Shown here: in pieces, positions 1 to 49,744 of the stretch
Layout: the number at the start of each line of letters is the position of its first letter
Numbering within the stretch: position 1 is the first letter of the stretch
Translations under genes and position numbers: made by a program
Notes under the pieces: model-generated
Database searches by the model: none
Seen by the model: the letters and a program-made list of their open reading frames with translations, nothing else
What the model was told of the DNA's origin: nothing
Virus record (IMG/VR): IMGVR_UViG_3300044617_000226
Coordinates: 14,989 to 78,988 of that record
Source: a virus
Strand: one strand, 5' to 3'
Length of the DNA stretch: 64,000 bases

Positions 1-3000
1 TAATCTTCTAAGAGATTCATGTCATCGACCAAACTCTTTAGTTTGTTGACATCGACTAAGAATGTGTCCCCAAACTTCTGCTTATCGCTAGGGAACACAT
101 GCAAATTTTCTTTAGCGAATGGATCGCAGATATATGTCACATCAAAGTTTTTATAGTCACAGACTGAACTACATACCCAGATATAATTCTCTTTATTCGG
201 TTTGACCTTTGCCAATATGTCTTTGAATGTATCGAGGTAACTCTTTCTATATGGCACTGTGAATACATTCTTTCCTGTGGCTTTAGACAATAACTGTTCT
301 TTAATCTTGTCTGTCTCACTGTTGCCATGGTCGATCAGATAGATATCGTACAAGCAGTTAGTCGCTTTGGCACTACGGTTCTTGACAAAGTTTAGATTGC
401 TAAGATGCTCTATGATCTTGATATACTTGGTATCTTCTGGGAAAGTTTCTTTGTTCAATAGATATGTGGTTCCCCAATGGCTCCACTGAGTGCCAAATAT
501 ATGAACCATCTTCATCTGCCAAGGATTAGGATAATACTTGAAATCAAAATTACTATAATCTAATTCGCTGTTGAGTATCCATGCTAACTCAGTGGTGCTT
601 CTATTCAAGCAACGGTATATCGTATCTACCCAACTGTTCAGATATCTAGTCTTTTGTATGTTAGGGAATCGTTCTTGTAATCTCTCAAATCTTTCTTTAG
701 ATTCAATGTTGCCGCGATCAATCATAAACATATCAGGTTGTATGAACAACTCAGCAAGATATTCGTTCTCTGCTTTTATGTCGCCAGTAACGAAATTGTA
801 CTGCGTGAATCCTTGCTTATAGAGTTTGCTATTGACGAAATATGTCTGTGTCTCTTTTGCTTCGGGACTACCGAATACATGAACGAATCGTGCTTGTTCG
901 ATATTAGGACGCCAGCTGAAATTGAAACTGCTGTAATTGATGTTCTTATTCAATGCCCAGAACAATTCGTCACTATGTTGATCGATCAAATCTTCTAATG
1001 TAGTCTGTATGTAATATTTAGGAATCTCTACGAACTCGTCATCGTGCTTTTTAGTCACACGCAACAACTTTACAGCCTCTCCATTGTTCTTTTTAGGAAC
1101 ATAGAGAGGGCCATCTTCGTCATTCAATAATGTACCGAACTGATAGATGTAAGGTGGGCTACCGGGATTAGGTCTCCAGCTAAAGTCGAAATCTTTAATG
1201 TCGATATCTTTAGGTATCATCCAGTTAGTCATATCGCTAGCGACTTCTGCTATGATGTCGTTGACATATTTTCTTTCTGTAGCACCTTCTACAACATATT
1301 CTAATGTTGGTTCTACTTCAGAACTATTCCACTGATTACCGAACACATAGATATATGGAGGGCTAGTGGGGTCTGGACGCCAACTATAATCAAAGTTTCC
1401 CCTAACTTTGATCAATTCACGCCACTTACTATAATCAGGTAATACATTTGCTACTTGCGTCATATATTTGCGCTGTGTAGCATTCTTGACATGATATTCT
1501 AATGTAGGTTCTATCTCAGCATTATTCCATTGATTGCCGAACACATAGATATAAGGATCATCGTGTGGATCAGGTACCCAACTATAGTCAAAACTTGTTC
1601 TGTCTACTGGTATGATCTCTGTGAATCTGTCATAGTTTTGCGCTAATGATGCTTTGAGAGTGTTATCATACTTGTAGTCCGTACCACCGCTGACTCTATA
1701 CAATACTGTAGGCATTTTTTCTGCTGGATACTGCGTGTTGCCGAAAGCATAGATATATGGATCTTCTTTAGGATTAGGTCTCCAACTAAAATCAAAACTC
1801 TCTTCTACGATAGGATGTAGTATCTTAAAGTTTTTCTTGTCAGGTAACACATGTGCTATGATGTCTTCTACATATTTGTATTCTGTAGCACCCGGCACGA
1901 CATATTCTAATGTATGTTCTAGTGTTGCTTTATTCCATTGATTACCGAACACATAGATATAAGGAGGTGCTTTAGGATCAGGCACCCAACCAAAGTCGAA
2001 TTTGTTCTTATCTACTGGTATCTTTTCTACCCAATTAGTCATGTTATTTGCTAACTTGGCTTTGATATCATCTACATATTTGATCTCTGTAGCGTTCTCT
2101 ACAGCATAGCGAACGGTAGGCATGACTTCGCCGGGATACTGATTGTTACCAAACACATATATGAATGGATCATCGTATGGGTCTGGTCTCCAACTGAAGT
2201 CGAACTCATTTTCAACTATAGGCAATAGTATCTCAAATTTTGATTTGTCTTGCGCTACCTTACCTATGATATCATGAACATACTTGTATTCTGTAGCACC
2301 TGCTACATGATATTCAACAGTAGGTTCTTTCTCAGCACGGTTCCACTGATTACCGAACACATAGATATAAGGTGGTGCCTCTGGATGAGGTACCCAACTG
2401 AAATCAAAACTATCAGGTTCTAATCTGATCTTTACTTTGAAATTCTTATTGTTAGGTAATGTCTTTGCTTCTATCTCTTTGATATATTTCTTTTGTGTAG
2501 CATTCTTAGTTTTGTATATAGGTCCGCCCACATCGTTCCATACAGTAGCGAACTCATAATCATATGGTTCTTCTGTGCTATCTGGATGCCAACTAAAATC
2601 GAAACTATCTTGATCTATGTTACTAGGTATGAACCAGTTTTCTTTATTAGGTAACTTAGTGACTTTTTGTATGTCTACATATTTTGTTTCGGTAGCATTC
2701 TCTACGACATATCTAGGGCCATCAGTCTTTTGATGCTGTGTGCCGAACTCATAGATATATGCCGATTCAGTATCATCGGGATGCCAACTAAAGTCAAACT
2801 TGCTAATATCAACATCTATAGGCACTTGCCAATTACTATGGTCGGGCTTTCTAACTGCTCGTTGGCTGTCTACATACTTTGTCTCAGTCGCACCTGCCAC
2901 GACATATCTAGGACCACCTGTCTTCTGCCACTGTGTGCCGAACTGATAGATGTAAGGGGGACTGCCTGGATCAGGAACCCAACTAAAGTCAAAAGACTTT

Positions 3001-5153
3001 GTATCTATGTTATCAGGTATTTGCCAGTTAGTCATGTTGATGTCTAATCTAGCAACAACATCATTGATATACTTGATTTCTGTAGCGCCGGGAGTCACAT
3101 ATCTTATAGTAGGCATCACTTCAGCAGGATACTGATTATTACCGAACACATAGATATATGGTTCTTCTGTATTATCGGGGTGCCAACTAAAATCAAAACT
3201 CTTTATTTTGATATCAGACAACTGCCAGTGTTGTTGAGTAGGACTGGCTTTGACCTTATCACTATGCATGTATTTTGTTTCAGTGGCTCCTTCTACTATA
3301 TACTTAGGTCCACCGTTCTTTTGCCACTGAGTATTGAATTCATAAATGTAGGATTGATCATGCGGATTAGGTATCCAACTATAATCGAATTCATTATCAT
3401 CGATATTATCAGGTACTATCCAATTAGTCTTGTTTTGTTCTAATTCAGCAACGATGTCTGTTATATACTTTTCTTTAGTCGCGCCTTCTACCCTATATTC
3501 TATAGTAGGCATCTGTCTAGCATCGTGGTGCTGATTACCAAACACATAGATGTATGGTTCTTCTGTATTGTCTGGATGCCAACTATAGTCAAAACTCTTT
3601 ATCTTATAATCAGAAACGACATGCCAGTTTTTATTAGTAGGTAATGCTTTTATTTTGTCTGAAATCATATACTTGACTTCAGTAGCGTTAGGCATCTCAT
3701 ATCTAATACCGCAATTCTTTTGCCATTGAGTATTGAACTCATATATGTATGGAGGATCGTGCGGATTAGGGATCCAGTCGAAATCAAAATCTTCTACTGC
3801 TATATTATCAGGTACTACCCAATATTCACGGCTGTTAGTGATAGTCGCTATGATATCATGTACATATTTGATCTTGCTTGCGCCTGGCACATGATACTCA
3901 ACTGTCGCCATGATCTCGGCACTGTAATATTGATTGCCAAACACATAGATGTATGGTTCTTCTGTATCATCTGGATGCCAACTAAAATCAAAATCTTTTA
4001 TGTTAATACCTTCTGGTATCTTCCAGTTATTTGTAGTAGGCAACGCAGTAGTTTGTTGCTCACTGATGAATTTGATTTCTGTAGCATTCTCTACAATATA
4101 CTTAGGACCGCCTGTCTTTTGCCATTGTGTGCTAAATTGATAGATATATGGAGGATCATTAGGGTTAGGCTCCCAACTGAAATCAAAATCTTTAGTATCA
4201 ATGTTGTCAGGTATAGACCAATTAGTCATATCTGCAAGCCTGGTGACTCTATCAGGCATGTATTTGTATTCTGTTGCACCTTCTACTATAAACTGTACAC
4301 TGATCTTGTCTTCAGGTTTATTCCACTGATTGCCCCATGCATAGATATAGGGAGGCGCACCTGGATCAGGACGCCATGTGTAATCCATGTCAGAGCATTT
4401 TTCAAATACATCAAATATCTTACTGTTGGAACTTAGTTTGACATGCCATGCATTGTCGATATACTTTCTATCAGTAGCGCCGTCTACATGAAATTCTATA
4501 GTAGGCATCTCTTCAGCAGAGTAATGCTGATTGCCCCATACATAGATATAAGGTGGGTTGGTAGGATCAGGAATCCATGACCAATCAAAAGTATTCTCGT
4601 CAATATCTTGTAATATCTTATAATTGTTTTTGTTAGGCTTTAACTCTACAAATTTTTCCATGTATTTGTAGTCTGTCGCCCCGGGAACACGATATTCTAT
4701 CGCAGGCTTATGCGTAGCAGGGAAATATCTACAGCCCCATGCATAGATATAGGGAGGATCTGTAGGATCTGGGTGCCAACTGAAATCAAACAGACTCTCT
4801 TCAACATCATAATTCAATACCCAATTATTTGACCTATCTTCAGTTCTTACTAATTCAGGTACATCTTGTCTGTATATCGTATTGCCGCCAGTATTTTTAG
4901 CGCACAACCAAGTACCGCTATCTTTGTTATGCTGACTGGGCCATACATTATCATGCTCGCCTGTCCATACTTGATCGTCCGGCAAGAATTCAAAATCAAA
5001 GTCCCAATCAAAACCTGCATAGTCACAAAACTCGTTGACTATCCAAAAATGTTCAGTGGTGGCTAATGCTCTCGCTTCTTCGAGGTTTTTAGCATATCGC
5101 TCTAGTGGGTGAACATTGGGTTTTTTGCCGAAGTAGAATACATCTCGTATCAT
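1..5153 (-). CDS. Giant tandem-repeat protein (>=1717 aa, 3' end beyond window): ~19 repeats of ~65-68 aa plus degenerate glycosyltransferase-like modules
   Basis: Hand translation from ATG at 5153 gives MIRDVFYFGKKPNVHPLERYAKNLEEARALATTEHFWIVNEFCDY. The frame stays open to the window edge (...LLED). The track lists no ORF in this frame, as expected if there is no stop. The motif FD(F/Y)SWxP(D/N)xxxxPYIYxFG(N/T)Q...GATExKY recurs about every 200 bp. Confidence 0.93.
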   Translation of the reverse strand, partial: MIRDVFYFGKKPNVHPLERYAKNLEEARALATTEHFWIVNEFCDYAGFDWDFDFEFLPDDQVWTGEHDNVWPSQHNKDSGTWLCAKNTGGNTIYRQDVPELVRTEDRSNNWVLNYDVEESLFDFSWHPDPTDPPYIYAWGCRYFPATHKPAIEYRVPGATDYKYMEKFVELKPNKNNYKILQDIDENTFDWSWIPDPTNPPYIYVWGNQHYSAEEMPTIEFHVDGATDRKYIDNAWHVKLSSNSKIFDVFEKCSDMDYTWRPDPGAPPYIYAWGNQWNKPEDKISVQFIVEGATEYKYMPDRVTRLADMTNWSIPDNIDTKDFDFSWEPNPNDPPYIYQFSTQWQKTGGPKYIVENATEIKFISEQQTTALPTTNNWKIPEGINIKDFDFSWHPDDTEEPYIYVFGNQYYSAEIMATVEYHVPGASKIKYVHDIIATITNSREYWVVPDNIAVEDFDFDWIPNPHDPPYIYEFNTQWQKNCGIRYEMPNATEVKYMISDKIKALPTNKNWHVVSDYKIKSFDYSWHPDNTEEPYIYVFGNQHHDARQMPTIEYRVEGATKEKYITDIVAELEQNKTNWIVPDNIDDNEFDYSWIPNPHDQSYIYEFNTQWQKNGGPKYIVEGATETKYMHSDKVKASPTQQHWQLSDIKIKSFDFSWHPDNTEEPYIYVFGNNQYPAEVMPTIRYVTPGATEIKYINDVVARLDINMTNWQIPDNIDTKSFDFSWVPDPGSPPYIYQFGTQWQKTGGPRYVVAGATETKYVDSQRAVRKPDHSNWQVPIDVDISKFDFSWHPDDTESAYIYEFGTQHQKTDGPRYVVENATETKYVDIQKVTKLPNKENWFIPSNIDQDSFDFSWHPDSTEEPYDYEFATVWNDVGGPIYKTKNATQKKYIKEIEAKTLPNNKNFKVKIRLEPDSFDFSWVPHPEAPPYIYVFGNQWNRAEKEPTVEYHVAGATEYKYVHDIIGKVAQDKSKFEILLPIVENEFDFSWRPDPYDDPFIYVFGNNQYPGEVMPTVRYAVENATEIKYVDDIKAKLANNMTNWVEKIPVDKNKFDFGWVPDPKAPPYIYVFGNQWNKATLEHTLEYVVPGATEYKYVEDIIAHVLPDKKNFKILHPIVEESFDFSWRPNPKEDPYIYAFGNTQYPAEKMPTVLYRVSGGTDYKYDNTLKASLAQNYDRFTEIIPVDRTSFDYSWVPDPHDDPYIYVFGNQWNNAEIEPTLEYHVKNATQRKYMTQVANVLPDYSKWRELIKVRGNFDYSWRPDPTSPPYIYVFGNQWNSSEVEPTLEYVVEGATERKYVNDIIAEVASDMTNWMIPKDIDIKDFDFSWRPNPGSPPYIYQFGTLLNDEDGPLYVPKKNNGEAVKLLRVTKKHDDEFVEIPKYYIQTTLEDLIDQHSDELFWALNKNINYSSFNFSWRPNIEQARFVHVFGSPEAKETQTYFVNSKLYKQGFTQYNFVTGDIKAENEYLAELFIQPDMFMIDRGNIESKERFERLQERFPNIQKTRYLNSWVDTIYRCLNRSTTELAWILNSELDYSNFDFKYYPNPWQMKMVHIFGTQWSHWGTTYLLNKETFPEDTKYIKIIEHLSNLNFVKNRSAKATNCLYDIYLIDHGNSETDKIKEQLLSKATGKNVFTVPYRKSYLDTFKDILAKVKPNKENYIWVCSSVCDYKNFDVTYICDPFAKENLHVFPSDKQKFGDTFLVDVNKLKSLVDDMNLLED
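1090..4830 (-). repeat. Coding tandem repeat array, ~19 units of ~195-205 bp
   Basis: Plus-strand ccaact(a/g)aa(a/g)tc(a/g)aa-like motifs (encoding FDFSW) near 1180, 1380, 1580, 1785, 1990, 2190, 2395, 2590, 2785, 2980, 3180, 3375, 3580, 3775, 3975, 4170, 4375, 4575 and 4775. Conserved at protein level with synonymous divergence. Confidence 0.9.
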
Positions 5154-5161: not shown

Positions 5162-6643
5162 TTATGAAATGACTTTAAGGTTATAAAGTTTTTCAAAGCG
5201 ATCGGCATCCATTCTATCGTTGACCATAGGTTCCCCGCGTATGTTCAAACTTGTGTTCAACAACATGGGGCATCCAGTCTTATCATACCATGCTTCTAGT
5301 AACTGTCGTATCCCAGATCCATCTTTTGCAACTGTCTGTACACGACTGGTATTGTCGTGATGAACGATAGCAGGAAAAAAGTCAGGATGCCTGCACCTAG
5401 CGATGACTTGCATATACCTACTATTACTGAAACCAGCAGGCATGTCAAAATAGTTATCAACATGCTCTTCCAAAATGACTGGAGCAAAGGGTCTGAACTT
5501 CTGTCTTCGTTTGATCTCATTGACTTTATCCTTTATCTCGGGTCCTCTTGGGTCAGCTAATAAACTACGATTGCCTAATGCGCGAGGCCCGAATTCTGCT
5601 CTTCCATTAGCAACCCCTACCATCTTATTTTTCTTTAGTTCTTTGATGATCTTATCTACTGGATATGGCCCTTTGATGTCGTGACCTAAGAATGCATCAG
5701 TCCAGTTGATCTTTCTACCATAACCCAATGCGGCTGCGCCTAGGCTGTTACCTGCATCGCCCGGATTAGGCATTATCCATATGTTATTAAAATACTTACC
5801 TAATAGTCTATTTGCTAGACAGTTTAATGCTACGCCACCACCGTATACTAGATTTTTGCTAGAACCTAAACGAAAGGCTTTGTGCATGACTTTTTCTATT
5901 AGGGTCTCGCATACTAACTGTGCGCTAGACGCGATATCCATATCTTCTGCTTTGTCTAAGAAGTTATTTGGTTCTAAACCTATGTGTAGATTATGCCTGA
6001 AATCTAAGTCGAATAGATTTTCTAGATAATGACTTACCATCCTATTAGCATGTTTAGGTTTACCGTATGCAGCCATACCCATGAGGATATATTCTTCTTC
6101 ATTGGGCTTTAATCCCACACGCTGTGTCATAGCACTATAGAATAGTCCTATGCTGTTGGGATATTTTTTGCTCCATAATTTAGTATAGTGGGCAGTACCA
6201 TTCTTGTCATAACATGCATCCCATATGCTGATGCAATCTAACTCACCTATAGCATCTATGATGACCACTGTAGCATGATCAAATGGACTAGTCTGAAACC
6301 CTGCCGCCGCATGGCTCTTATGATGTGAATGTGTAGTGATAGGTTTGTCACCTAATAGATCGCATAGTTCAGGACCTATGATCTTCTTTGCGCTTAAAGA
6401 ACTCATAGGTTGTCCCGCACGAAATTGTCTGAATGCTTTAAGCCAAGGCTTCTCATAATAATGCAATTCATAATTATATGTTGCATATGATAATGCATCT
6501 TTGATTATGCCTTCACACAAATCAGGATCATGCTTCTTTTTGCTATAGCGTTCGCTATGTCCAGCAAAGAGTATATTTCCGTTATCACTTATGACACTAA
6601 TACCTGCATCGTGAAAGCCCGCGCTTATACCTATATAACTCAT
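5162..6643 (-). CDS. Carbamoyltransferase, NodU/CmcH/TobZ family
   Basis: Kae1-like N-domain (HDAG, SERYSKKKHD, HHKSHAA, DAIGE, GGVALNC, PGDAG) and YrdC-like C-domain (GRAEFGPRALGNRS, KRRQKFRPFAP, SRVQTV, LLNTSLN). Confidence 0.95.
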   Translation of the reverse strand: MSYIGISAGFHDAGISVISDNGNILFAGHSERYSKKKHDPDLCEGIIKDALSYATYNYELHYYEKPWLKAFRQFRAGQPMSSLSAKKIIGPELCDLLGDKPITTHSHHKSHAAAGFQTSPFDHATVVIIDAIGELDCISIWDACYDKNGTAHYTKLWSKKYPNSIGLFYSAMTQRVGLKPNEEEYILMGMAAYGKPKHANRMVSHYLENLFDLDFRHNLHIGLEPNNFLDKAEDMDIASSAQLVCETLIEKVMHKAFRLGSSKNLVYGGGVALNCLANRLLGKYFNNIWIMPNPGDAGNSLGAAALGYGRKINWTDAFLGHDIKGPYPVDKIIKELKKNKMVGVANGRAEFGPRALGNRSLLADPRGPEIKDKVNEIKRRQKFRPFAPVILEEHVDNYFDMPAGFSNSRYMQVIARCRHPDFFPAIVHHDNTSRVQTVAKDGSGIRQLLEAWYDKTGCPMLLNTSLNIRGEPMVNDRMDADRFEKLYNLKVIS

Positions 6644-9572: not shown

Positions 9573-10354
9573 AAACTTTTAATCATTCCAATTTCTCGCT
9601 GAAAATCATATCCCATATCAACATAGCGTTGGGTTATATCTTTACTATATATAAAATCCCCATCTTTAAATAGATCCATCAACACATTTTTACCTTCAGC
9701 GAATCTATCCAATATGATATCAGCAAGTATCCTATTATTTTCATCTGTAAGATGTGTGCTACGAACATCTCCATATCCGCCCATATCCATTTCTTTTTCT
9801 GTGACTTTAAACAAATTATACAGGCAATCACTATGTCTATTGGAAAAATCTAATTCATTGCCGGCGTTATCGATAAAAGGTAATATATTTACTAATTTTA
9901 TATTCTTGTCTTTACATATTTGATTAACATCATCAAACATCTTTTGCTGTACCCAAAAATTGAACTGAAAATCACATAAAAATTTATAACCTAATAATAT
10001 CTGTACGATCTCAGACTGTTCTTCTGCATTGAATTTTTTAAATGTAGATGTTTTGTAGAATGTTTCAACATCTGGAAATCCACTAACTACAGCGTATCGG
10101 TGAGGCATAGTCTGTATCCTATGCACAAATGACCAACAAAATACAATATGGTCAAATCTATGATGATGATCTTTAAAACAAGTAAAAGCATGATTACTAG
10201 CACTACCGCTTAAACCATATGATGATACTTTATGTCCTTTAGACACGATATGCGCCATCCAACTTTCATCTGTTTTAAACTTTGACAATGGTGCAGATAT
10301 ATTTCTATCCGCATAACTGTCGCCGAATACTCCTATATGCAACTTATCCATCAT
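9569..10354 (-). CDS. SGNH/GDSL-fold protein
   Basis: VFGDSYAD, YGLSGSA, DVRSTHLTDENN. Confidence 0.7.
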   Translation of the reverse strand: MMDKLHIGVFGDSYADRNISAPLSKFKTDESWMAHIVSKGHKVSSYGLSGSASNHAFTCFKDHHHRFDHIVFCWSFVHRIQTMPHRYAVVSGFPDVETFYKTSTFKKFNAEEQSEIVQILLGYKFLCDFQFNFWVQQKMFDDVNQICKDKNIKLVNILPFIDNAGNELDFSNRHSDCLYNLFKVTEKEMDMGGYGDVRSTHLTDENNRILADIILDRFAEGKNVLMDLFKDGDFIYSKDITQRYVDMGYDFQREIGMIKSL

Positions 10355-11604
10355 TTAAGTCCTATATATTTTGCTAGATTGTCAGGTTTATTTCTGCGCT
10401 TAGTATACTGCTCAAAAAAGATGTCACTATCTCTACGCATCTCTGCCTGATTCTCTCTTATGAATCCTTCATCCAAAAACTTGATCAATCTATTACAATG
10501 CTCATGTTCTATAGGTAATAGATCATCTTTGATAGTTTCATAAAATTTTGTATATTTGTTAATATAGAAATCTCGCTCACTTCTAGTCAAACAAGCAAAA
10601 CCTTGAAACTCTGGTTTATCTACCATGTTGATAGATATATAAGGCTTGACTTTAGTTCGCTTTCTGATATCAATTATATCCAGATACATCTGATCTAATG
10701 ACTGTAATGCTATCGCGCTTACTGTGGTACTGATGCTAAACTCTTTGACTGTGCTATTACCCAGTCTTTCAATGTTCGTTAACCATTCACTATAAACCAT
10801 ACCTTCCCGTATGAACTCGGCAGTCTCACCCGCACTTTCATTGCTGATGTTCATGCGTAAGTTATTCAATCCTTTGATTTTTTCAAAGAATCTATCCATT
10901 ACTACTGGTTTCTGACATAGATTGCTGTGTATCACAGTCTCAATATTAGGATTGATTCTAGTCATCATAGCGAACAACTGAAACACTTCTTCATGCATCA
11001 ATGGTTCACCTCCGCTTACACGGATGCTCTCAAGTCCGGACATGACTGTCTCAAACCACTTCCAGAACAATTCCATGTGAGGTGGCTTGATCATCTCGTT
11101 CAATTCAGCCATGTCTTTCTGATAATGTCTACGATCATCAGTTTTGATGTTTGTATAGACACCATTGACTCTTATATCATTTATCCAACTAGTGCTAAAT
11201 TGTGGACTGCAATAACTACAGGCTAAGTTACAAGTATTATTGAATGCTAACTCTAATGCTTTGGGCTTGAATACGAAATTAGGATTCTTATAATCTTCAG
11301 CAGTCAAATGATCTTTGAAACTTAAACTCTTTCTAGTTCTGTCGCTAGTCAATCCTAGATTTTCATAGCGCCAGCAACTATCACATGCAGGGGGTTGTTC
11401 GCCTGCTAACATTCTTTTTTGTTGGTCGCGCTTTTCTGCTGGATTATAGAATGTATCTACTGTGTCACCTACTTGCAAGAAAGGGGTATAATGGCAACTG
11501 GCGATCTTGCCGCTATATACCCATATACTTGCCTCATGAAACTTAGCCAAACAGAATGTGGGGCTAGTCTCATCTCTGATTTTTAATAACTTATTCAATT
11601 CCAT
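10351..11604 (-). CDS. N-terminal Twitch radical SAM protein, subtype A
   Basis: FCLAKF...SCHYTP...CDSCW N-domain; CNLACSYC; SGGEP. Confidence 0.9.
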   Translation of the reverse strand: MELNKLLKIRDETSPTFCLAKFHEASIWVYSGKIASCHYTPFLQVGDTVDTFYNPAEKRDQQKRMLAGEQPPACDSCWRYENLGLTSDRTRKSLSFKDHLTAEDYKNPNFVFKPKALELAFNNTCNLACSYCSPQFSTSWINDIRVNGVYTNIKTDDRRHYQKDMAELNEMIKPPHMELFWKWFETVMSGLESIRVSGGEPLMHEEVFQLFAMMTRINPNIETVIHSNLCQKPVVMDRFFEKIKGLNNLRMNISNESAGETAEFIREGMVYSEWLTNIERLGNSTVKEFSISTTVSAIALQSLDQMYLDIIDIRKRTKVKPYISINMVDKPEFQGFACLTRSERDFYINKYTKFYETIKDDLLPIEHEHCNRLIKFLDEGFIRENQAEMRRDSDIFFEQYTKRRNKPDNLAKYIGLK

Positions 11605-12935
11605 CAGTAGTCAAACTCATCGTCTAATTTGTTATGTATCAGATAGTTTTTAATGTTGTTGTGTTCTGGATAGATAGTGAAAAAATCTTCTTCCCTTATC
11701 TCGTCTAATTTCTTCGTGATCTTGCTGAACATCTTTAAAGATTCATGCATGTTAGGAGCACGATCTAATTCAGAGTACATGAACTTTATAGCATTATCAT
11801 ATCTGTGTAATGTATTACTTATTGTGGAATATTGATCCTGGAACTTTTTGAGCCATTCCATCTGATCTAAAAACAATAATTCGATCTCACGCTTTTTCCA
11901 CTCGGGTATGTTTTTAAGGTTATAATATGGTGGAGTATCTAATGGGTTAATCATTATATCGTCTGGTTTTATCAGACCCAATTCCACCCACTCTTTATGA
12001 AATTCTACTAGATTATGCGCATTAGGCCAACTCAATGTGAAGCCGATATTAAAGTCTACATGAGGACATTCTTGCATCAACAACTTTCTGTTCTCAACTA
12101 TAGTAGCCCATTCTGTTCCCTTGCGCCAGTATTCGCCCTTGCTATAACTTCCATCTAAACTAGCATTGATTTGTACTCTAGTAAACTTCTTCCAGTACTC
12201 TAATACATTGTCGAAACCCTTGAGTTTGAAGTTTGAGAAGTTAGTATTATATTGTAATGATACATCTAGTTTATCTAGTTCTATCAATCTGTCAAGCATC
12301 TTATAATGATCTTCTTGCATCAATGGTTCCCCGCCTGCGAAATAGATTAATTCTGCTGTTGCTAGGTGGGGTAATATCTCTTCTAGTGCATGAACCTCAG
12401 TCTTACCGGCAAACTGAAAACCATTATCAGTATCCTTGAACTTATCGCTTGGATATAACTTTCTATTATCTCCTACCCAACTTGTGCTATAATAAGGCCC
12501 GCATGTTCTACATCGTAGATTACATAAATTGTTGAATCTAACATCGATATAAAAAAGTTTATGCTCTGCAAGTGATCCGTCAGGTCTAGTATTTGCTACG
12601 ATGTCTTGCACTACCTTGTTGTCTTTGAAGAACCTGTCATTGTATGCATTATAAAACTGATCACCTATAGTATGACGATTATTGCATATCGCACAGTGGG
12701 GGTGTTTTTCCCCGCGCAAAAACTGCAATCGCATGTTTCTTGTCTCTTCGTTATTCCATATTTCTGCTAATGAGTTTTCTTTCAAATTGCCGATCTGTTG
12801 CTGGTTCTCATAACCATAAACACAGCAAGGTTTGACATCACCTCTAGTTCCTACATGTTGATGTACCCATGGAAAGATGCAAAAAGTCTTGCTAGTCTTT
12901 GCCATCTCTAATGGATTAAATTCTTGATCGCTCAT
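11604..12935 (-). CDS. N-terminal Twitch radical SAM protein, subtype B
   Basis: CIFPW...KPCC...CAIC; CNLRCRTC; AGGEP; YNTN; SLDG. Confidence 0.9.
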   Translation of the reverse strand: MSDQEFNPLEMAKTSKTFCIFPWVHQHVGTRGDVKPCCVYGYENQQQIGNLKENSLAEIWNNEETRNMRLQFLRGEKHPHCAICNNRHTIGDQFYNAYNDRFFKDNKVVQDIVANTRPDGSLAEHKLFYIDVRFNNLCNLRCRTCGPYYSTSWVGDNRKLYPSDKFKDTDNGFQFAGKTEVHALEEILPHLATAELIYFAGGEPLMQEDHYKMLDRLIELDKLDVSLQYNTNFSNFKLKGFDNVLEYWKKFTRVQINASLDGSYSKGEYWRKGTEWATIVENRKLLMQECPHVDFNIGFTLSWPNAHNLVEFHKEWVELGLIKPDDIMINPLDTPPYYNLKNIPEWKKREIELLFLDQMEWLKKFQDQYSTISNTLHRYDNAIKFMYSELDRAPNMHESLKMFSKITKKLDEIREEDFFTIYPEHNNIKNYLIHNKLDDEFDY

Positions 12936-14226
12936 ATTCTATAAAATCCCTGTGTAATTCTGGGAAGAGGATCTTGAAATCTTCATTCCTTATAGTATCT
13001 AGTTTTTGTGTCTCTTTGAAAAATAATGGAATCAATTTAGATTCGTCTTTGCTATTCATCATAGTCATAGCATTTTTCCAAACATCTACATAATGATAGT
13101 AATCGTAATTCTTTACTTGTGTCTGATCTAGAAACTCTAGGTGAGCCAATATTTTTTCTGATACTCTTTGTTTTGTCTTAGGAGGTAATATAGTAGTCTG
13201 CATCCATATAGGTGCATGTAGCACATTCAAGTTAAAGTTGAATTTGTTTCCATTATTGTTAGTGAAAATATCACTCTCGCACATATGTCTGTGTAAGTCT
13301 ATGGCTGCTTCACAATTAAAGATGCTGTATACTGCGCTGACTCCATAATTAGCATTTGGTGCTTGTTCTTTGCTAGCCTTGATCCAATCTTGTGCAAGTT
13401 GCCAGTCAAAGCCTTTGCGTATATATTCTCCTTGCAGGCCCATTGCATCGATGCTGCCTATTATGAATACATTATAGAACTTGTCTAGTAATTTGAATGC
13501 GTTATAATGTTTTAATTCATAGACGCTTAAGTTGGTATTATATCTGATCTTTATATTAGTTTTACCCATGTCTATCAATAGTTGCAAGAATTCATAATGT
13601 TCTTCTTGCATCATGGGCTCCCCGCCACTGAAATGTATCTCTGTATATTCATCACACATATTGACCATATCGATAAGATCAGTAGTCATATGTGGAATTT
13701 TTGTATTAGTCAATAAACTTGCTTTGACGGGTAATCCCATCTTCATCACTTCAACCGCCCAACTTGTGCTAAGACCTGGGCCGCAACTACGACATTTGAA
13801 ATTGCAAAGACTGTTGAATATGATATCTATGGTACCTAACTTTATATTTTTCACACTGCCGTCGGCATTTGTTTGTTCAACTATATCTTTAAATTTATTA
13901 TAACCATTAAAATTGGTATGATCCGGATAATCACGATAACGCTTATTGAATATATTGCGCATACTATCGATGCCGCTATCTTCTTCTTTCCAGCATCGTG
14001 AACATGAATCCGGTTTCTTACCTTCTAAGAAATCTTTCCTCAATTTATTCCATTGATCACCATGAAATATATCTGTGATTTTATTGTCATTCCAATTACC
14101 CAACTGGTGCTGATGATTGTGGCTATAATAACAGCATGGCATCACCTTACCATCAGGTTCGGTGTGTATCTGTAGCCAGGGAAGACTGCAAAAATGCTCG
14201 GGAAAGTTGTCGTTTTCTAATGCCAT
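12916..14226 (-). CDS. N-terminal Twitch radical SAM protein, subtype B
   Basis: CSLPW...MPCC...CSRCW; CNFKCRSC; SGGEP; YNTN; SIDA. Confidence 0.9.
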   Translation of the reverse strand: MALENDNFPEHFCSLPWLQIHTEPDGKVMPCCYYSHNHQHQLGNWNDNKITDIFHGDQWNKLRKDFLEGKKPDSCSRCWKEEDSGIDSMRNIFNKRYRDYPDHTNFNGYNKFKDIVEQTNADGSVKNIKLGTIDIIFNSLCNFKCRSCGPGLSTSWAVEVMKMGLPVKASLLTNTKIPHMTTDLIDMVNMCDEYTEIHFSGGEPMMQEEHYEFLQLLIDMGKTNIKIRYNTNLSVYELKHYNAFKLLDKFYNVFIIGSIDAMGLQGEYIRKGFDWQLAQDWIKASKEQAPNANYGVSAVYSIFNCEAAIDLHRHMCESDIFTNNNGNKFNFNLNVLHAPIWMQTTILPPKTKQRVSEKILAHLEFLDQTQVKNYDYYHYVDVWKNAMTMMNSKDESKLIPLFFKETQKLDTIRNEDFKILFPELHRDFIEYERSRI

Positions 14227-14232
14227 GATGTA

Positions 14233-15525
14233 TTAGTAAATCCATCCATCAAGTTCGGGGAACACATTAGTAAAGTTTCTATCTCTACGATTGTCATATT
14301 CAGTAGTGAACTTCTTGAACTGATCTGTTCTCCATTCACGCTCAGTATCATTCATAGTTGACTTGCGGGCTTTCCAGAAATCATAGACCATAGCCCATGT
14401 TTCTTTCTCTACGCTCTTTATCAAACTATCATTTTCTTTCATGAAGTTGTTAGTATCTTCAAAATAACTATCAGCACTATCTGGTAGTATGCGCAAATCG
14501 AACTGTTTAGGGTCAACTAATCGTGCGCAGTTGAACATGATATCGATACCATCTTTACGAAACTCAATAACTTTCTTAATAAATGTCTTAAAGTTGAAAA
14601 CGCTCAACAATCCAAATGTGACCATGATACGAATAGGTACATGGAATGTTGTGCTGACTTTGCGAACAGTATCTTCCCACTGTGCTACATCTAGACCATC
14701 ACGGATATACTCTGCTTGTGGTCCCCATGTATCCATGCTTGTATATACTTCAAGACCCTTGATAGTTTTAGCATTCAATAATGTCGTAGCCTTCTCAAAG
14801 AACATCTTTAGATTCTTCTCAGGTACGCATAAGTTGGTGTTGATAACTAATGTCAAGTTAGGATTGTGGTTCTGTGCTACGAAATCTAATAGTTTCATGA
14901 AGTTGCGTGTGGCGAGTGGTTCACCACCGGTGATTCTTAGATAACGCAAATCTTTGTATGCGTCGGGTAACCACTTCCAGAATGCATCGATATATGGGTT
15001 ATCATCTTCTGGCAACATGTCGTGCATCTTGTCTTTATGCACAGTAGGATCTTCGATAGGATAACTACCGAATTTACGAACTTCATGCTCCCATCGTGAA
15101 CTCTGTCCCGGACTGCAATAACTACATGCAAAGTTACAAGTGTTTGCGAAACTAATCTCTAAGTAGCTAGGATTGATCGGCTTGTCATAAGGTGCATTCA
15201 ATATTTCTGCTCTGCGCTCAATAGCCCAGGACTCGTTAGTAAAACGCTTTCTATCGCTGATGACATCGGGGTTAATCGCTTCCATGTCAAAACAGTAGTA
15301 GCACTCTTTAGGCTTCTCACCATTCATCATCTGACGGCGTTGCTCAATCTTATGTCCAGTATTATGTAATGCTGAAGGGTCTTTGTCAGTCTCTTCACGC
15401 TTCCAACGATGTATCGGTGGATGATAACAACTGTGGTTCTCGCCCATACCGAAATGCATAGTGACCATAAGCCATTTTGCCGCACAAAAACTGTTTTGAA
15501 TCTTAATTGGAATTTCTACACTCAT
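14233..15525 (-). CDS. N-terminal Twitch radical SAM protein, subtype A
   Basis: CAAKW...SCYHPP...CYYC; CNFACSYC; TGGEP. Confidence 0.9.
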   Translation of the reverse strand: MSVEIPIKIQNSFCAAKWLMVTMHFGMGENHSCYHPPIHRWKREETDKDPSALHNTGHKIEQRRQMMNGEKPKECYYCFDMEAINPDVISDRKRFTNESWAIERRAEILNAPYDKPINPSYLEISFANTCNFACSYCSPGQSSRWEHEVRKFGSYPIEDPTVHKDKMHDMLPEDDNPYIDAFWKWLPDAYKDLRYLRITGGEPLATRNFMKLLDFVAQNHNPNLTLVINTNLCVPEKNLKMFFEKATTLLNAKTIKGLEVYTSMDTWGPQAEYIRDGLDVAQWEDTVRKVSTTFHVPIRIMVTFGLLSVFNFKTFIKKVIEFRKDGIDIMFNCARLVDPKQFDLRILPDSADSYFEDTNNFMKENDSLIKSVEKETWAMVYDFWKARKSTMNDTEREWRTDQFKKFTTEYDNRRDRNFTNVFPELDGWIY

Positions 15526-16700
15526 AATATTTCACCTAATTCTGGTATATAATCTTTGTAACTTAAAGTTCTTGCCTTGTCTACTGCGTTGATGAACTGA
15601 CTTGCCTTCGTCAATAACTTGGGATCATGCTCTATCATTAATTTAGCATACAATTCATTACGCTGCCATTCATGCAATTTATCTTTATAATAATCCCTGA
15701 TCTTGTCTTTATAACTCTCAGGTAATGCGGCGAGACTTAGATAGTCTGGATACAATACATAATTGTGATGAGGTATCTTGTTATAATTTGTTTCTAGCCA
15801 AGTATTTAACACATCCAAATTCAATATGTTTAGTATGCTTACAGTCTGTGTGACATGCCAATATACATTATCTACTTTGTTTAATTTCTCTATGCTAGTG
15901 ACAGTTTCATCCCATTGTGTAGGATATCTGATATAATAGTTTCTAATATCGTAATCATCGATGCTTGCATTGACTGTGACTTTCATGAATGACTTCCACA
16001 ATTCTATCAGATTATCAGGAATGTCCATCATGTTTAGGCTATATACAAGATGTACTTTTTGTGCTGTACCATTATCGATTAGATTTTGCAGATAGCGGAA
16101 GTGTGCTTTGATCAATGTGGGTTCACCACCATTGATGTATATTTCTTCTACACCTTCGCTATACTTTGTCAACTCGTCATAGAACTCTGGATCTTCGAAC
16201 CACTTAAAGTTCTCTACGGGTCTTAGAACGAACCAAGGTAAGTCTTTGCTTATTTTCTTTTCGTCTGGATACCATTTGCTACTACTATAACTGTTACAAG
16301 TCAAGCAGGCATTATTACACACATTGCCTAAACGCAATTCGATATAACGATAATTAGGTCTCTTGATGAAAGATGTTTTCTCAAGTTGATCTATGATGTG
16401 TGCCCAGCGTTTGTTTTCGTACTGTCTTTTGCTTTCTAGTCCTGCATCTTCATCACGCCAGCATCCTTCACATTCGATAGGGCGTCTGCCGTCGATCATA
16501 TCTTGTCTTACTTTGATAAACTTATCGCTGTTGATGACATCATCGAGGCTGTCATTATCTAATGTAACAAGGCTGTTAGTACCTTGTTTCTTAGCCCAAC
16601 TAACTGCATCATTATGATTGCTACGGCAACAAAGGCTGACACCACCGTTAGGGTGTGTCGCTAGATGCATCCAAGGTAGCACACATAATGTTTTACTCAT
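15522..16700 (-). CDS. N-terminal Twitch radical SAM protein, subtype B
   Basis: CVLPW...SLCC...CEGCW; CNNACLTC; NGGEP. Confidence 0.9.
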   Translation of the reverse strand: MSKTLCVLPWMHLATHPNGGVSLCCRSNHNDAVSWAKKQGTNSLVTLDNDSLDDVINSDKFIKVRQDMIDGRRPIECEGCWRDEDAGLESKRQYENKRWAHIIDQLEKTSFIKRPNYRYIELRLGNVCNNACLTCNSYSSSKWYPDEKKISKDLPWFVLRPVENFKWFEDPEFYDELTKYSEGVEEIYINGGEPTLIKAHFRYLQNLIDNGTAQKVHLVYSLNMMDIPDNLIELWKSFMKVTVNASIDDYDIRNYYIRYPTQWDETVTSIEKLNKVDNVYWHVTQTVSILNILNLDVLNTWLETNYNKIPHHNYVLYPDYLSLAALPESYKDKIRDYYKDKLHEWQRNELYAKLMIEHDPKLLTKASQFINAVDKARTLSYKDYIPELGEIL

Positions 16701-18094
16701 ATCTTATCCCACCATTCTAACAATTTAGGATGACGGCTATAGATATCACGCAATGTTAATTTAGCCTCGCGTATCTGTTCTAGTCTATGAACCCAACCTT
16801 TACCGTTCTTAGCTGCCTGGCGGAATGTGTCGGGCCATTCTTCTTCGTGTGTTTTTCTAGTATATTTCAATGCTTCTAAGTTAGCGATCAAAGTACCATG
16901 ACGCCATTCATCTGCTTTAGGTCTGATATAATCAAGTATATCATCGCATACTTCATTCAGTACTTCTCTAGGCCAACTAGTTGGACTCCACATGATGTCA
17001 GGATGGAACGCGAATGTGATCTTTGTCTCAATCTTTACGCCCAACTCATTACTCAAATCAAACAAATCTTTCAATGCGAACATACCGGGTGCTGTGATAG
17101 TCAAATCTAATACCATCTTTTGTCTGCCACCGGGCAATTCACAACCACGCTTGAAGTTTTCTAACCAACGATCCCACTTGATACCTGTGCGTATATATTC
17201 AACGATTTCACCCGTGCCGTCAATACTTGCGCACATCATCCAATCTTTGAAATGCGGTAGATAATCAAATAAGTTCTTATCACCAAATTGAACGCGGCTT
17301 AAGTTACTATTGTATCGCATGAAACAATTCTTTGCGCTACCATTCTTTAACATTTCTTCCAATGTCCACCAATGCACATCATACATCAATGGCTCGCCAC
17401 CTACCCAGTACATTTCTTCAACGATACCGCGACTTACTGCATCACGAAACTCTGGCTCGACAACCTCAGTCTGGAACTTCTCCATAGCAGTCTTGATCTC
17501 TGGGACCATGAATGGTTGATTCTTGGGAGTCCACATATTGTTGATCTTCTTTTCAGATTCCCATGAACTGCTTAACTGCTCACCGCACATGCGGCATTTG
17601 AAATTACATAGATTGCTGAAACGGTAATCGAATGATATAGGTTCCATAGTGGTATGACCTGTATCATCGGTCTTGTCGAATGCCTCTTGTATCTTATGCT
17701 TGAATAGTGTGCCTGTGAACCATCCGCGATAACTGTGACCTTCCATCAATAGATTCTTGTTACAGACATCGCATTGTGGAATCTCTTCTCCGCGCATTAA
17801 CTTTACACGGATATCACGCATATATGGACTGTTCCAATGTTCTTTCAATGACATTGGTCTATATTTGTCTAGTGATGTCTCACTATCCTTTACTGCGCCA
17901 TAACGCTCATCATTACTGCTGTCGATATATTGCTTTTGAAAACTATGTTCTTCACGGCTAGCACAACATAATCTGCGTTCGCTTTGTGGACTTATGTATG
18001 TGTGCGTCCATGGAGCCATGCAAAAGACTTTGTTTTCGCTGTCTTTTGCTGGCTTCGCATCATCACCCCATATCGGAATTATCTTATTTGTCAT
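16697..18094 (-). CDS. N-terminal Twitch radical SAM protein, subtype B
   Basis: CMAPW...RLCC...CDVC; CNFKCRMC; VGGEP; SIDG. Confidence 0.9.
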   Translation of the reverse strand: MTNKIIPIWGDDAKPAKDSENKVFCMAPWTHTYISPQSERRLCCASREEHSFQKQYIDSSNDERYGAVKDSETSLDKYRPMSLKEHWNSPYMRDIRVKLMRGEEIPQCDVCNKNLLMEGHSYRGWFTGTLFKHKIQEAFDKTDDTGHTTMEPISFDYRFSNLCNFKCRMCGEQLSSSWESEKKINNMWTPKNQPFMVPEIKTAMEKFQTEVVEPEFRDAVSRGIVEEMYWVGGEPLMYDVHWWTLEEMLKNGSAKNCFMRYNSNLSRVQFGDKNLFDYLPHFKDWMMCASIDGTGEIVEYIRTGIKWDRWLENFKRGCELPGGRQKMVLDLTITAPGMFALKDLFDLSNELGVKIETKITFAFHPDIMWSPTSWPREVLNEVCDDILDYIRPKADEWRHGTLIANLEALKYTRKTHEEEWPDTFRQAAKNGKGWVHRLEQIREAKLTLRDIYSRHPKLLEWWDKI

Positions 18095-19625: not shown

Positions 19626-19632
19626 ATTATCC

Positions 19633-21198: not shown

Positions 21199-22190
21199 TA
21201 CCAGCCTTCGATCCTTCTGATCACATCCATCTCTGTGACAAGCGGTCCTAGATTATGCTTATCACTATTATAATGACGCTTGAAGAATTTGCTTTGCTCA
21301 GGTGACAATGTACAGATAGGCAAGCCTAACTTATTTTCTAAGTGCGCGCCTGCATCTTCCATAGCGACTTTAGGATCTTTACCTTCAGCATATTCTTTCC
21401 ATAACTCAGGATAGTTATCGAACCACTGAACATTTGTGTGATCCCATTCACTCAACATAGTTAAGTATGTTCCCAATCTTGCGCCATACATAGCCCAATA
21501 ACCGTTCTCAACATCACTACCAACATTCTGCCAGATAGTGAGATTATTCAAGTTTCTGCTAGCCACTGTCTCTTTGAATTCTTCTACTGTAGGTACAGCG
21601 CCTTTATTCAAGCACATCTTGACACCTTCACGAAAGCCTGCACGCCATGCTTGAAAAGGTGTATAGTTAGGATATGTTGTTGAATAGCAATCATACATAG
21701 CCCAATAGAGGCTGTCTTTGCTATCTAAACAGAAATCAGCGATTCGTGATACATCGCCTTCAGTCTGATGCTCATGTGTCTTCATCTCACGCACATAAGT
21801 CTTAGTCCAACTGCTCATGCCACCATTGCCATAACGCAGTCCATTGATAGCATTGATCGCTTTCCAGCGAAACTGTGCTAATTTGAATTTAGGATCTTTG
21901 TCTGTGAAGTCTAACTGAATGTTGAAGAAACTCTCGTCAGGCATATTGTCGCCGTCGATCAATATGAATCTTTCTGTGTCGCTTGCTTCACCTGCGGCTT
22001 TGTGTGCGGCATCGCTACCCTTGACACCGTCTACGCGCTTTGCCCAAGGAACCATGTTTTGAATTTGTAGCCAGAATTCTTCTTTCTGTGGCTCATCATA
22101 ACTTAGGTAAATGCAGTCGAGTTCTGCAACATCTACAATATCATAACTCATGTGTATGTAACTTCCATTTTTGTTGATCTGCGTAGTCAC
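21198..22190 (-). CDS. Putative GT-A-fold glycosyltransferase
   Basis: N-terminal strand DCIYLSYDEP; GVKGSDAAHKAA; hydrophobic strand plus DxD (FILIDGDN); QAWRAGFRE resembles the QxxRW-type helix. True start may be the internal Met (MSYDIV). Confidence 0.65.
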   Translation of the reverse strand: MTTQINKNGSYIHMSYDIVDVAELDCIYLSYDEPQKEEFWLQIQNMVPWAKRVDGVKGSDAAHKAAGEASDTERFILIDGDNMPDESFFNIQLDFTDKDPKFKLAQFRWKAINAINGLRYGNGGMSSWTKTYVREMKTHEHQTEGDVSRIADFCLDSKDSLYWAMYDCYSTTYPNYTPFQAWRAGFREGVKMCLNKGAVPTVEEFKETVASRNLNNLTIWQNVGSDVENGYWAMYGARLGTYLTMLSEWDHTNVQWFDNYPELWKEYAEGKDPKVAMEDAGAHLENKLGLPICTLSPEQSKFFKRHYNSDKHNLGPLVTEMDVIRRIEGW

Positions 22191-49736: not shown

Positions 49737-49744
49737 TATTTATA
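49737..49744 (-). promoter_or_regulatory. T4-type late promoter TATAAATA
   Basis: Exact consensus 5 bp upstream of the gp25 ATG. Confidence 0.75.

What the first reader, a model, noticed from the sequence alone, without database searches (positions are those of the whole stretch)
1..5153. Giant aromatic-repeat protein missed by the ORF track
Seen: a >=1717-aa open frame with ~19 repeats of consensus NWxIPxxIDxxxFDFSWxPDPxxPPYIYxFG(N/T)QW...(P)xxxYxVxGATExKY, as the last visible gene of the tailoring operon. I do not recognise the repeat family. Inference: either a multivalent scaffold or sugar-binding array that organises the enzymes, or a repetitive substrate. The spaced aromatics (F-x-F-x-W, Y-x-Y-x-F) recall residues crosslinked by SPASM/Twitch peptide maturases. 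The folded-looking 66-aa unit argues more for a scaffold.
Basis: partly seen in the sequence, partly recalled or inferred. Interest (0 to 1): 0.82.

Follow-up and report, generated by a model that had tools for sequence, protein, structure and literature searches.

The report
Phage giant protein of half-glycosyltransferase repeats
A 2048-residue protein of an uncultured lake phage is built from 19 copies of a piece cut out of a sugar-transferase fold, strung in front of one well-conserved sugar-transferase-like domain; this repeat has not been described before and is most likely a stiff, length-variable arm of a glycan-tailoring enzyme, not a target of the neighbouring radical SAM enzymes.

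Summary
Window 3..5153 (-) is the first 1717 residues of a 2048-aa ORF that ends 994 bases beyond the window's left edge. It holds 19 tandem 64-68-aa units with the stated consensus. No Pfam, PHROG, NCBIfam or PDB sequence match exists.

Structure prediction and profile comparison show what it is made of. The last 650 residues hold three GT-A (nucleotide-sugar transferase) fold modules. The last module is highly conserved but carries A-K-L where DxD normally sits. Each 66-aa repeat is homologous to the C-terminal half of such a module. Four repeats fold with pLDDT 95 into an all-beta array. Its only PDB matches are single repeats aligned weakly to halves of GT-A enzymes.

The architecture is virus-restricted. 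515 viral contigs carry it, and repeat number runs from 2 to 31 in orthologues. A carbamoyltransferase lies directly upstream in 45 of 54 loci, and N-terminal-Twitch radical SAMs are frequent neighbours.

Best reading: a glycan-tailoring enzyme of the late operon with a non-catalytic arm (spacer, ruler or acceptor binder). The crosslink-substrate idea is not supported, because the aromatic motif is inherited from the parent fold.

Another first-stage note on this same DNA (e1-6096895) had already guessed "DxD-less glycosyltransferase pieces". I tested that here and it holds.

The parts
4833..5153 (-). N-terminal mini-module (residues 1-107). It starts MIRDVFYFGKKPN and carries a first copy of the W-I-V-N...DY..FDWDF motif.
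   Evidence: Translation. The same N-terminus (M-x-x-D-V-F-Y) opens nearly all full-length family members. This module was not modelled here.
1038..4832 (-). Array of 19 tandem 64-68-aa repeats (residues 108-1372). Each is a truncated, C-terminal-half GT-A-like module: a strand, an aromatic FDFSWxPDP loop, then three strands.
   Evidence: Searches give the units, alignment and identities. One search is the four-unit model (pLDDT 95.5, all-beta, four strands per unit); hhalign against full modules gives probability 95% and E about 1e-8; only 8 of 48,161 PDB chains reach Z>=2, all are GT-A enzymes, and each aligns one repeat to the second half of its GT-A domain (Z 2.1-3.0); the repeat HMM finds 174 cluster representatives among 1.84 billion.
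744..1037 (-). Transition segment (residues 1373-1470). It holds a degenerate copy of the motif (FNFSWRPN...VHVFG) and a low-confidence stretch.
   Evidence: pLDDT is 44-79 over model residues 1-75.
357..743 (-). First complete but degenerate GT-A / nucleotidyltransferase-like module (residues ~1471-1599).
   Evidence: model residues 76..204 align to MobA (1fr9) with Z 9.9, rmsd 2.9 over 127 residues. Model numbering plus 1395 gives protein numbering.
3..356 (-). Second complete degenerate GT-A-like module (residues ~1600-1735), cut by the window edge at residue 1717. The rest of the protein lies left of the window at G000:C1:13995-14990: a spacer (about 1736-1824) and the conserved DxD-less GT-A-like domain with its helical tail (about 1825-2048).
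   Evidence: model 205..340 matches IspDF, TarI and MobA with Z 10.2-11.0. Model 430..570 matches B4GALNT1, a Leptospira GT, WrtF, ThuS and PBCV-1 A64R with Z 9.6-12.0. Model 430..653 matches Chlorella virus hyaluronan synthase with Z about 10; 2753 homologues of the last 368 residues; many invariant residues, with A-K-L at the DxD position.
5162..6643 (-). NodU-type carbamoyltransferase, 8 nt upstream of the repeat gene. It is the most constant neighbour.
   Evidence: Carbam_trans_N and Carbam_trans_C, E 1e-36 and 3e-49. NodU; directly upstream in 45 of 54 related loci.
21198..22190 (-). Stand-alone 330-aa paralogue of the C-terminal domain that keeps a D-G-D (DxD) motif.
   Evidence: 27% identity, E 2e-9, with ILIDGDN aligned to FTVFAKL; at least 8000 homologues at about 80-89% identity, all unnamed.
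10351..21198 (-). Eight tandem N-terminal-Twitch radical SAM genes of the same co-directional gene run.
   Evidence: NF033640, E 2e-72 to 2.5e-105, above the curated cut-off for all eight; relatives are present in 20 of 31 loci that have at least 7 kb of upstream DNA.

Best explanation
The gene encodes a 2048-aa cytoplasmic protein of an uncultured freshwater phage. The phage has T4-like baseplate genes and is probably a jumbo phage. The protein is assembled entirely from modules derived from the GT-A (nucleotide-diphospho-sugar transferase) fold.

Its order of parts is:
- one N-terminal mini-module;
- 19 copies of a 64-68-aa unit that is only the C-terminal half of such a module (strand, aromatic FDFSWxPDP loop, beta-hairpin, extra strand);
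- two to three complete but degenerate modules;
- a spacer;
- one strongly conserved GT-A-like domain with a helical extension, in which the metal-binding DxD is replaced by A-K-L.

Shown here: the repeats, their homology to the half-module, the GT-A folds of the C-terminal modules, the virus-restricted distribution, the variable repeat number, and the constant neighbourhood of sugar-tailoring-type enzymes.

Inferred: the C-terminal domain is the working part. It would be a glycosyl- (or related nucleotide-activated group) transferase that uses a basic residue instead of a metal, acting in the operon's glycan synthesis or tailoring pathway. The repeats lack the nucleotide-binding half and cannot be catalytic. 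They would form a stiff, elongated arm whose length is set by unit number. This arm would position the enzyme or hold its polymeric acceptor, acting as a spacer, a ruler or a multivalent acceptor binder. The target glycan (virion protein, cell-surface polymer or other) is not known.
For: Architecture. The full ORF is, and the 19 units. Three GT-A or nucleotidyltransferase-like modules appear in a model with pLDDT 87. Foldseek's best hits are tandem GT-A enzymes (mimivirus R699, chondroitin polymerase K4CP, LH3), and VIA gives Z 10-12 per module.

Repeat equals half-module. hhalign of the repeat profile against the 110-125-aa modules of distant family members gives probability 95% and E 1e-8. 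It aligns the repeat to the module's second half. Strand order matches between the two models. The only eight PDB chains with Z>=2 for the repeat model are all GT-A enzymes, matched over one repeat.

Folded, rigid array. The four-unit model has pLDDT 95.5 and pTM 0.81.

Conserved C-terminal domain. It stays 57-89% identical across the 80 fetched loci while repeat number runs from 2 to 31 in the full-length ORFs. It has many invariant polar residues and a basic residue at the DxD position in nearly all members aligned (K in the close orthologues and most distant members, R in one). A DxD-bearing paralogue lies in the same operon.

Context. A carbamoyltransferase is adjacent in 45 of 54 loci. 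An SGNH/GDSL-like protein, N-Twitch radical SAMs and a SpeD-like protein are in the same gene run. From established knowledge, the characterised Twitch radical SAMs BtrN and BlsE act on sugars or sugar nucleotides, not peptides.

One architecture only. 26 of 33 long HMM hits carry the C-terminal domain, and the others look 3'-truncated.
Against: No activity, donor or acceptor is known for any member. The family has no sequence match to any curated glycosyltransferase family. The DxD motif is absent from the conserved domain, so it could be a pseudo-enzyme or catalyse another reaction. Nucleotidyltransferases such as MobA, IspD and TarI score as well as glycosyltransferases on the inner modules.

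The single-repeat fold matches are individually weak (Z at most 3.0). Rod-like geometry is inferred from confidence values only, because no coordinates could be inspected. Late expression rests only on gene order next to baseplate genes and one intergenic TATAAATA; that motif is not enriched in the window.
Confidence: 0.6

Rival explanations
1. Docking scaffold. The repeats each bind one of the operon's enzymes (radical SAMs, carbamoyltransferase, SGNH proteins) and so organise an assembly line.
For: The units are folded and regular. There are two alternating unit subtypes. The tailoring neighbourhood is constant.
Against: Repeat number (2-31) does not follow the number of radical SAM genes in the locus (r = -0.14). 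Radical SAMs are absent from 11 of 31 loci that have enough flank. No interaction was tested. The conserved positions of the unit are those of the parent fold, not an obvious added surface.
Confidence: 0.15
2. Virion structural protein. The array is the shaft of a fibre or decoration filament, and the GT-A-like end is a glycan-binding or glycan-modifying tip.
For: The gene lies in a co-directional run that follows baseplate genes (gp25 and a gp5-like gene) and a Peptidase_G2 fibre-type domain. Length variation by unit number is typical of fibres and surface proteins.
Against: The N- and C-terminal parts are enzyme folds. The immediate neighbours on both sides are enzymes, not structural genes. 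There is no match to any fibre or tail family in PHROGs or BFVD beyond its own relatives.
Confidence: 0.15
3. Repetitive substrate. The spaced aromatic residues of the repeats are crosslinked or otherwise modified by the eight Twitch radical SAMs, as in peptide maturation.
For: Radical SAMs with an auxiliary-cluster domain lie in the same gene run. The repeats are rich in aromatic residues.
Against: The aromatic motif is shared with every non-repeat module of the family, and in weaker form with the stand-alone DxD-bearing paralogue, so it predates the array. The units are confidently folded 66-aa domains, not leader-core peptides. One third of the related loci have the array without such radical SAMs nearby. 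NF033640 is a family of cellular genomes, whereas the repeat family is virtually absent from 185,579 species genomes.
Confidence: 0.05
4. Functionless expansion. The array is a tolerated by-product of unequal recombination within a multi-module enzyme gene.
For: Unit number changes between close relatives: 19, 23 and 27 units in loci whose best segments are 86-91% identical to the C-terminal 653 residues.
Against: Units are old and diverged, yet every one keeps the roughly 25 consensus positions and an open frame. No DNA-level tandem repeat is detectable. All 59 full-length orthologues keep at least 2 units and most keep 9-30. Flanking units are orthologous one-to-one at 62-96% identity. All this argues for purifying selection.
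Confidence: 0.05

Closest known systems
Multi-domain GT-A glycosyltransferases and polymerases (E. coli K4 chondroitin polymerase K4CP, Pasteurella heparosan synthase PmHS2, LARGE1, human LH3, mimivirus R699)
   Same: They have several GT-A fold domains in one chain. They are the best Foldseek hits for the C-terminal 653 residues. Viral examples exist.
   Different: Those enzymes have two catalytic domains, each with DxD. Here only one domain is well conserved and it lacks DxD. The others are small degenerate modules. A 19-unit array of half-modules has no counterpart. There is no sequence similarity.
Single-domain GT-A enzymes B4GALNT1, Leptospira GT 6p61, WrtF, SunS/ThuS, PBCV-1 A64R, STIV A197
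   Same: They give the best per-domain structural matches to the conserved C-terminal domain (Z 9.6-12.0, rmsd 2.8-3.8 over 131-143 residues). B4GALNT1, 6p61 and A197 are also among the few chains that align to a single repeat.
   Different: Sequence identity is 6-13%. The DxD motif is replaced by A-K-L. No curated family model matches.
Metal-independent GT-A enzymes such as GT14 C2GnT-L (recalled from the literature, not tested here)
   Same: GT-A fold without DxD, in which basic side chains take over the role of the metal in holding the diphosphate. The basic residue that nearly all aligned members carry at the DxD position would fit this.
   Different: No alignment to this family was obtained, and the analogy is an inference only.
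Molecular rulers of glycan chain length such as the WbdD coiled coil of E. coli O9a (recalled from the literature)
   Same: A rigid element of variable length attached to a glycan-processing enzyme.
   Different: WbdD uses a coiled coil. Here the element would be a beta-rich domain array. No link between repeat number and product length has been shown.

Membership tests
GT-A fold nucleotide-diphospho-sugar transferase superfamily (fold level) | Rossmann-like alpha/beta/alpha domain with the GT-A strand order | tested here: met
   Three modules of the C-terminal model match GT-A enzymes or nucleotidyltransferases with Z 9.6-12.0 and rmsd about 3 over 125-143 residues. All Foldseek hits with E<=1e-3 are GT-A enzymes.
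GT-A fold nucleotide-diphospho-sugar transferase superfamily (fold level) | DxD (metal and diphosphate binding) motif at the end of strand 4 | tested here: not met
   The conserved C-terminal domain has F-A-K-L at this position, with a basic residue (K, or R in one member) in nearly all family members aligned. The stand-alone paralogue at 21198-22190 has D-G-D there. The repeats keep at most a vestige (P-D-N-I-D in some units).
Curated glycosyltransferase sequence families (Pfam Glycos_transf_2 and others; NCBIfam) | Score above the family's curated cut-off | tested here: not met
   No Pfam, NCBIfam or PHROG family matched the whole protein or its C-terminal 701 residues. A profile search of PDB sequences gave nothing below E 0.3.
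Glycosyltransferase (function) | Transfer of a sugar from an activated donor to an acceptor | not testable with these tools
   This needs a biochemical assay.
Any described protein repeat or carbohydrate-binding module family | Sequence or fold match of the 66-aa unit to a described repeat or CBM | tested here: inconclusive
   No Pfam or PHROG hit. Foldseek against PDB gave a best E of 2.1. VIA-wide gave no chain above Z 3.0. BFVD gave only two unnamed relatives. A missing match does not prove that the fold is new.
Radical SAM (SPASM/Twitch) modified peptide precursor | Short precursor with leader and core, or repeated short core motifs, co-distributed with its maturase | tested here: not met
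   The units are folded 64-68-aa domains in a 2048-aa protein. The motif is inherited from the GT-A module. The array occurs without nearby radical SAMs in 11 of 31 loci.
Radical SAM (SPASM/Twitch) modified peptide precursor | Mass change (-2 Da per crosslink) on the substrate | not testable with these tools
   This needs co-expression and mass spectrometry.

The most novel reading that the evidence does not exclude
The half-GT-A unit is a new autonomous protein domain. It was created by truncating an enzyme fold to its acceptor-side half. Phages string it into rigid rods of 2 to 31 units that act as a molecular ruler or as a multivalent acceptor clamp. The rod would set the length or spacing of a virion-associated or surface glycan made by a metal-independent GT-A enzyme at its tip, together with carbamoyl, acyl and radical-SAM tailoring. 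That would be a phage-encoded, length-programmable glycan-decoration machine with no described counterpart.
Probability: 0.25. Interest if true: 0.85.

Novelty: new variant of a known kind. Interest (0 to 1): 0.62.

Why it matters
It gives a structural identity to a large, unnamed protein family that is common in lake and other aquatic viromes. 515 viral contigs carry the repeat protein's C-terminal region, and thousands of metagenome proteins match it or its stand-alone paralogue.

It shows an unusual route of domain birth: a fragment of an enzyme fold becomes a self-standing repeat unit.

It also removes a tempting but wrong lead, that the repeats are a giant radical SAM substrate. Attention moves instead to a phage-encoded glycan pathway that sits next to the tail genes. 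If the arm measures or holds a glycan, the natural range of 2 to 31 units is a ready-made experiment on how length is encoded.

Tried and rejected
- Family libraries. Pfam, PHROGs and NCBIfam on the whole protein and on the C-terminal 701 or 368 residues gave nothing meaningful.
- PDB by sequence, single sequence and profile: nothing below E 0.01.
- tblastn of the repeat region against 50,697 phage records: no match. The C-terminal domain matched only one hypothetical protein of Ralstonia phage RsoM2USA at 30% identity, among unnamed genes.
- tblastn of a baseplate-region protein: no cultured relative.
- ESM Atlas: only unnamed viral clusters.
- Foldseek PDB on the repeat model: no match.
- Homotrimer co-fold of four repeats: no verdict, score 0.00. 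This is not evidence either way.
- Cellular genomes: only six loci, all MAG contigs. The one on a 2.5-Mb contig has an uninformative neighbourhood.
- Sequencing runs: no RNA holder is listed, so nothing can be said about expression.
- Contig 'joints' inside the array have sides of only 20-36 letters at 90% likeness. I read them as cross-mapping of related repeats, not as evidence of repeat-number polymorphism.
- P0268, an Ig-domain protein among the weak HMM hits, is a false positive.
- Literature searches found no description of this family. A 2025 paper on aquatic 'moraphages' reports four core glycosyltransferase groups (PMC12619734). I could not establish whether this phage belongs to that lineage.
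- Two early tblastn calls failed on a frame error and were repeated.
Full report
**Observation.** The window is bases 14989-78988 of a 78,988-bp linear IMG/VR virus record that CheckV rates as 23% complete. Window 3..5153 on the minus strand is open for 1717 codons from an ATG at 5153. With the DNA to the left of the window the ORF is complete: 2048 aa, G000 13995-20141, protein P0002.

A motif scan finds 19 canonical units of 64-68 aa at residues 108-1372, at a constant spacing. Units are 20-66% identical. A short-loop type (QWQKxGGP) and a long-loop type (NQxYxAExMPT) alternate in the middle of the array, so identity is higher at lag 2 than at lag 1. Tandem Repeats Finder sees nothing at DNA level, so the units are old and are kept by selection on the protein. 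Contigs from other lake metagenomes tile the stretch without a single difference, so the array is not an assembly artefact.

Two corrections apply. The gene is not the last of the operon: a SpeD-like gene and another radical SAM gene follow 13 nt downstream on the same strand. The last ~680 residues are not repeats.

**What the protein is made of.** No Pfam, PHROG or NCBIfam model and no PDB sequence matches any part. Structure does give an answer.

Residues 1396-2048 were folded with an alignment of 47 homologues and gave pLDDT 87. Foldseek's significant hits are all GT-A glycosyltransferases. Enzymes with tandem GT-A domains lead the list: mimivirus R699, chondroitin polymerase K4CP and LH3.

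The VIA second look resolves three modules:
- Model 76-204 and 205-340 match MobA, IspD, TarI and a galactosyltransferase with Z 9.8-11.0.
- Model 430-570 matches B4GALNT1, a Leptospira GT, WrtF, ThuS/SunS, PBCV-1 A64R and STIV A197 with Z 9.6-12.0 and rmsd about 3 over 131-143 residues.
- The helical tail up to residue 653 aligns along hyaluronan and cellulose synthases.

The last module is the conserved one. The final 368 residues have 2753 homologues in metagenomes, with dozens of invariant polar residues. At the position of the GT-A DxD motif it reads F-A-K-L, and nearly all aligned members carry a basic residue there (K, or R in one). A 330-aa stand-alone paralogue in the same operon (window 21198-22190) has I-D-G-D-N at that place (27% identity, E 2e-9).

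**What the repeat is.** Distant family members were found with the repeat HMM. They share the same N-terminus and the same C-terminal domain. In place of 66-aa units they carry tandem modules of 95-125 aa that read strand-helix-(R..G)-helix-W-V-x-x-x-x-DY..FDF.W.P......H.W....GG.T.L. Profile-profile comparison aligns the 66-aa repeat to the second half of these modules with probability about 95% and E about 1e-8.

The same motif closes the degenerate modules of this protein and its catalytic-type domain (FDWNWQPD...KHYIF). Secondary structure agrees. In the complete module the order is strand (YIWVCS), a 20-residue aromatic loop, then a hairpin (LHVFPS / GDTFLVDV). In the repeat it is a short strand, the FDFSWxPDPxxPP loop, then YIYVFG and two further strands.

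Four repeats fold with pLDDT 95.5 and pTM 0.81 into an all-beta array. Foldseek finds nothing like it in the PDB. An exhaustive VIA search of 48,161 chains finds only eight with Z>=2. All eight are GT-A enzymes (B4GALNT1, 6p61, CesA, FKRP, a cyclic glucan synthase, STIV A197, LARGE1, Chs1). Each aligns one repeat to the second half of its GT-A domain (Z 2.1-3.0). Each match is weak alone, but the set is coherent and agrees with the sequence evidence. BFVD holds only two unnamed relatives.

The unit is therefore a GT-A module stripped of its nucleotide-binding half. It cannot bind a donor by itself.

**Distribution and dynamics.** The repeat HMM finds only 174 cluster representatives among 1.84 billion. 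Of the 33 true hits of 800 aa or more, 26 carry the C-terminal domain and the other 7 look 3'-truncated. The repeat therefore exists in one architecture only.

IMG/VR holds 515 contigs with a relative of the C-terminal region, on contigs of up to 364 kb. In the 80 best loci, full-length ORFs run from 841 to 2784 aa with 2 to 31 units, while the C-terminal domain stays 57-89% identical.

The two closest relatives have 23 and 27 units. Their outer units are one-to-one orthologues of ours (62-96% identity). The extra units sit in the middle and are not recent copies, because their best match within the same protein is only 50-63% identical.

Among 185,579 species genomes only six loci match. All are on MAG contigs, and several are probably mis-binned phage DNA. 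The gene recurs nearly unchanged in lake-water metagenomes of several studies from 2015 to 2025.

**Context.** The gene sits in a long co-directional run. Its members include:
- a NodU-type carbamoyltransferase 8 nt upstream;
- a GDSL-like protein;
- a radical-SAM-like 407-aa protein;
- eight tandem N-terminal-Twitch radical SAMs (NF033640, all above the curated cut-off);
- the DxD-bearing paralogue;
- a Peptidase_G2 fibre-type domain protein.

Further upstream lie a 6216-aa ORF and the gp25 and gp5-like baseplate genes.

In related loci the carbamoyltransferase is directly upstream in 45 of 54 cases. Radical SAMs are present in 20 of 31 loci with enough flank, and no locus lacks both. Repeat number does not follow the number of radical SAMs (r = -0.14).

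The tie is to sugar-type tailoring in general rather than to the radical SAMs in particular.

**Mechanism.** What is shown is the modular anatomy, its origin and its evolutionary behaviour. What I infer is as follows.
- The C-terminal domain is the active part of a glycosyl-type transferase that uses a basic residue in place of a metal, as in known DxD-less GT-A enzymes (recalled from the literature).
- The array is a non-catalytic, stiff arm whose length is tuned by unit number.
- Because it derives from the acceptor-side half of the fold, it may bind the polymeric acceptor many times over.
- Because it is long, regular and variable, it may equally act as a spacer or ruler.

I give 0.6 to this package, about 0.9 to the anatomy alone, and low odds to the substrate idea. 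The rivals are an enzyme-docking scaffold, a virion fibre and neutral expansion. They are listed with their tests. The homotrimer co-fold gave no verdict and counts for nothing.

**Comparison and novelty.** The protein works most like multi-domain GT-A enzymes, but it fails two membership features: no curated family match and no DxD in the conserved domain. It can therefore be filed only at fold level. An array of half-GT-A units is not described in any library searched here. I rate it a new variant of a known kind. The more novel reading, a length-programmable glycan-decoration machine, stands at about 0.25.

Another first-stage note on the same DNA (e1-6096895) had guessed 'DxD-less glycosyltransferase pieces'. 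The tests here bear that out.

Noticed in passing
window 10351-21198 (-): Eight consecutive paralogous radical SAM genes all score above the curated cut-off of NCBIfam NF033640 (N-terminal Twitch domain). A ninth, truncated-looking relative lies at 7603-8826. A classical C-terminal-SPASM radical SAM lies at 62112-63125 (+). One more radical SAM lies downstream of the repeat gene at G000 12574-13605. Weak relatives occur in Vibrio jumbo phages and in Ralstonia phage RsoM2USA.
   Followed up: partly
window 21198-22190 (-): A 330-aa protein with no family match is a DxD-bearing paralogue of the repeat protein's C-terminal domain. It looks like a core gene of an abundant aquatic phage group.
   Followed up: partly
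window 27193-45843 (-): A 6216-aa ORF lies between the baseplate genes and the tailoring operon. Its only Pfam hit is a 70-aa E1_FCCH-like segment near residue 5800. It may be a giant fibre or baseplate-attached protein, and it is a candidate acceptor of the tailoring pathway.
   Followed up: partly
L009 13607-13981 (-), i.e. G000 13607-13981, just left of the window: A 124-aa S-adenosylmethionine-decarboxylase-like (SpeD) gene lies 13 nt downstream of the repeat gene (PHROG 3125, E 5e-15). Relatives follow the repeat gene in several related loci.
   Followed up: no
window 59681-60355 (+): A sulfotransferase-domain protein lies on the opposite strand next to SbcCD-like genes (Metallophos and AAA_23). 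It is another possible glycan-tailoring activity in this phage.
   Followed up: no
window 6914, 19755, 24417, 49737 (-): All four TATAAATA (T4 late-promoter-like) sites are on the gene-bearing minus strand. Two are intergenic: upstream of the operon's first genes at 24417-24424, and 6 nt before the gp25 start at 49737-49744. The motif is not enriched overall (4 found, 8.2 expected).
   Followed up: partly
L092 (MAG Haliscomenobacter sp., contig of 148 kb): A family member with 52% identity lies near the end of a contig binned as Haliscomenobacter (Bacteroidota). This may be a mis-binned phage contig and therefore a weak host lead.
   Followed up: no
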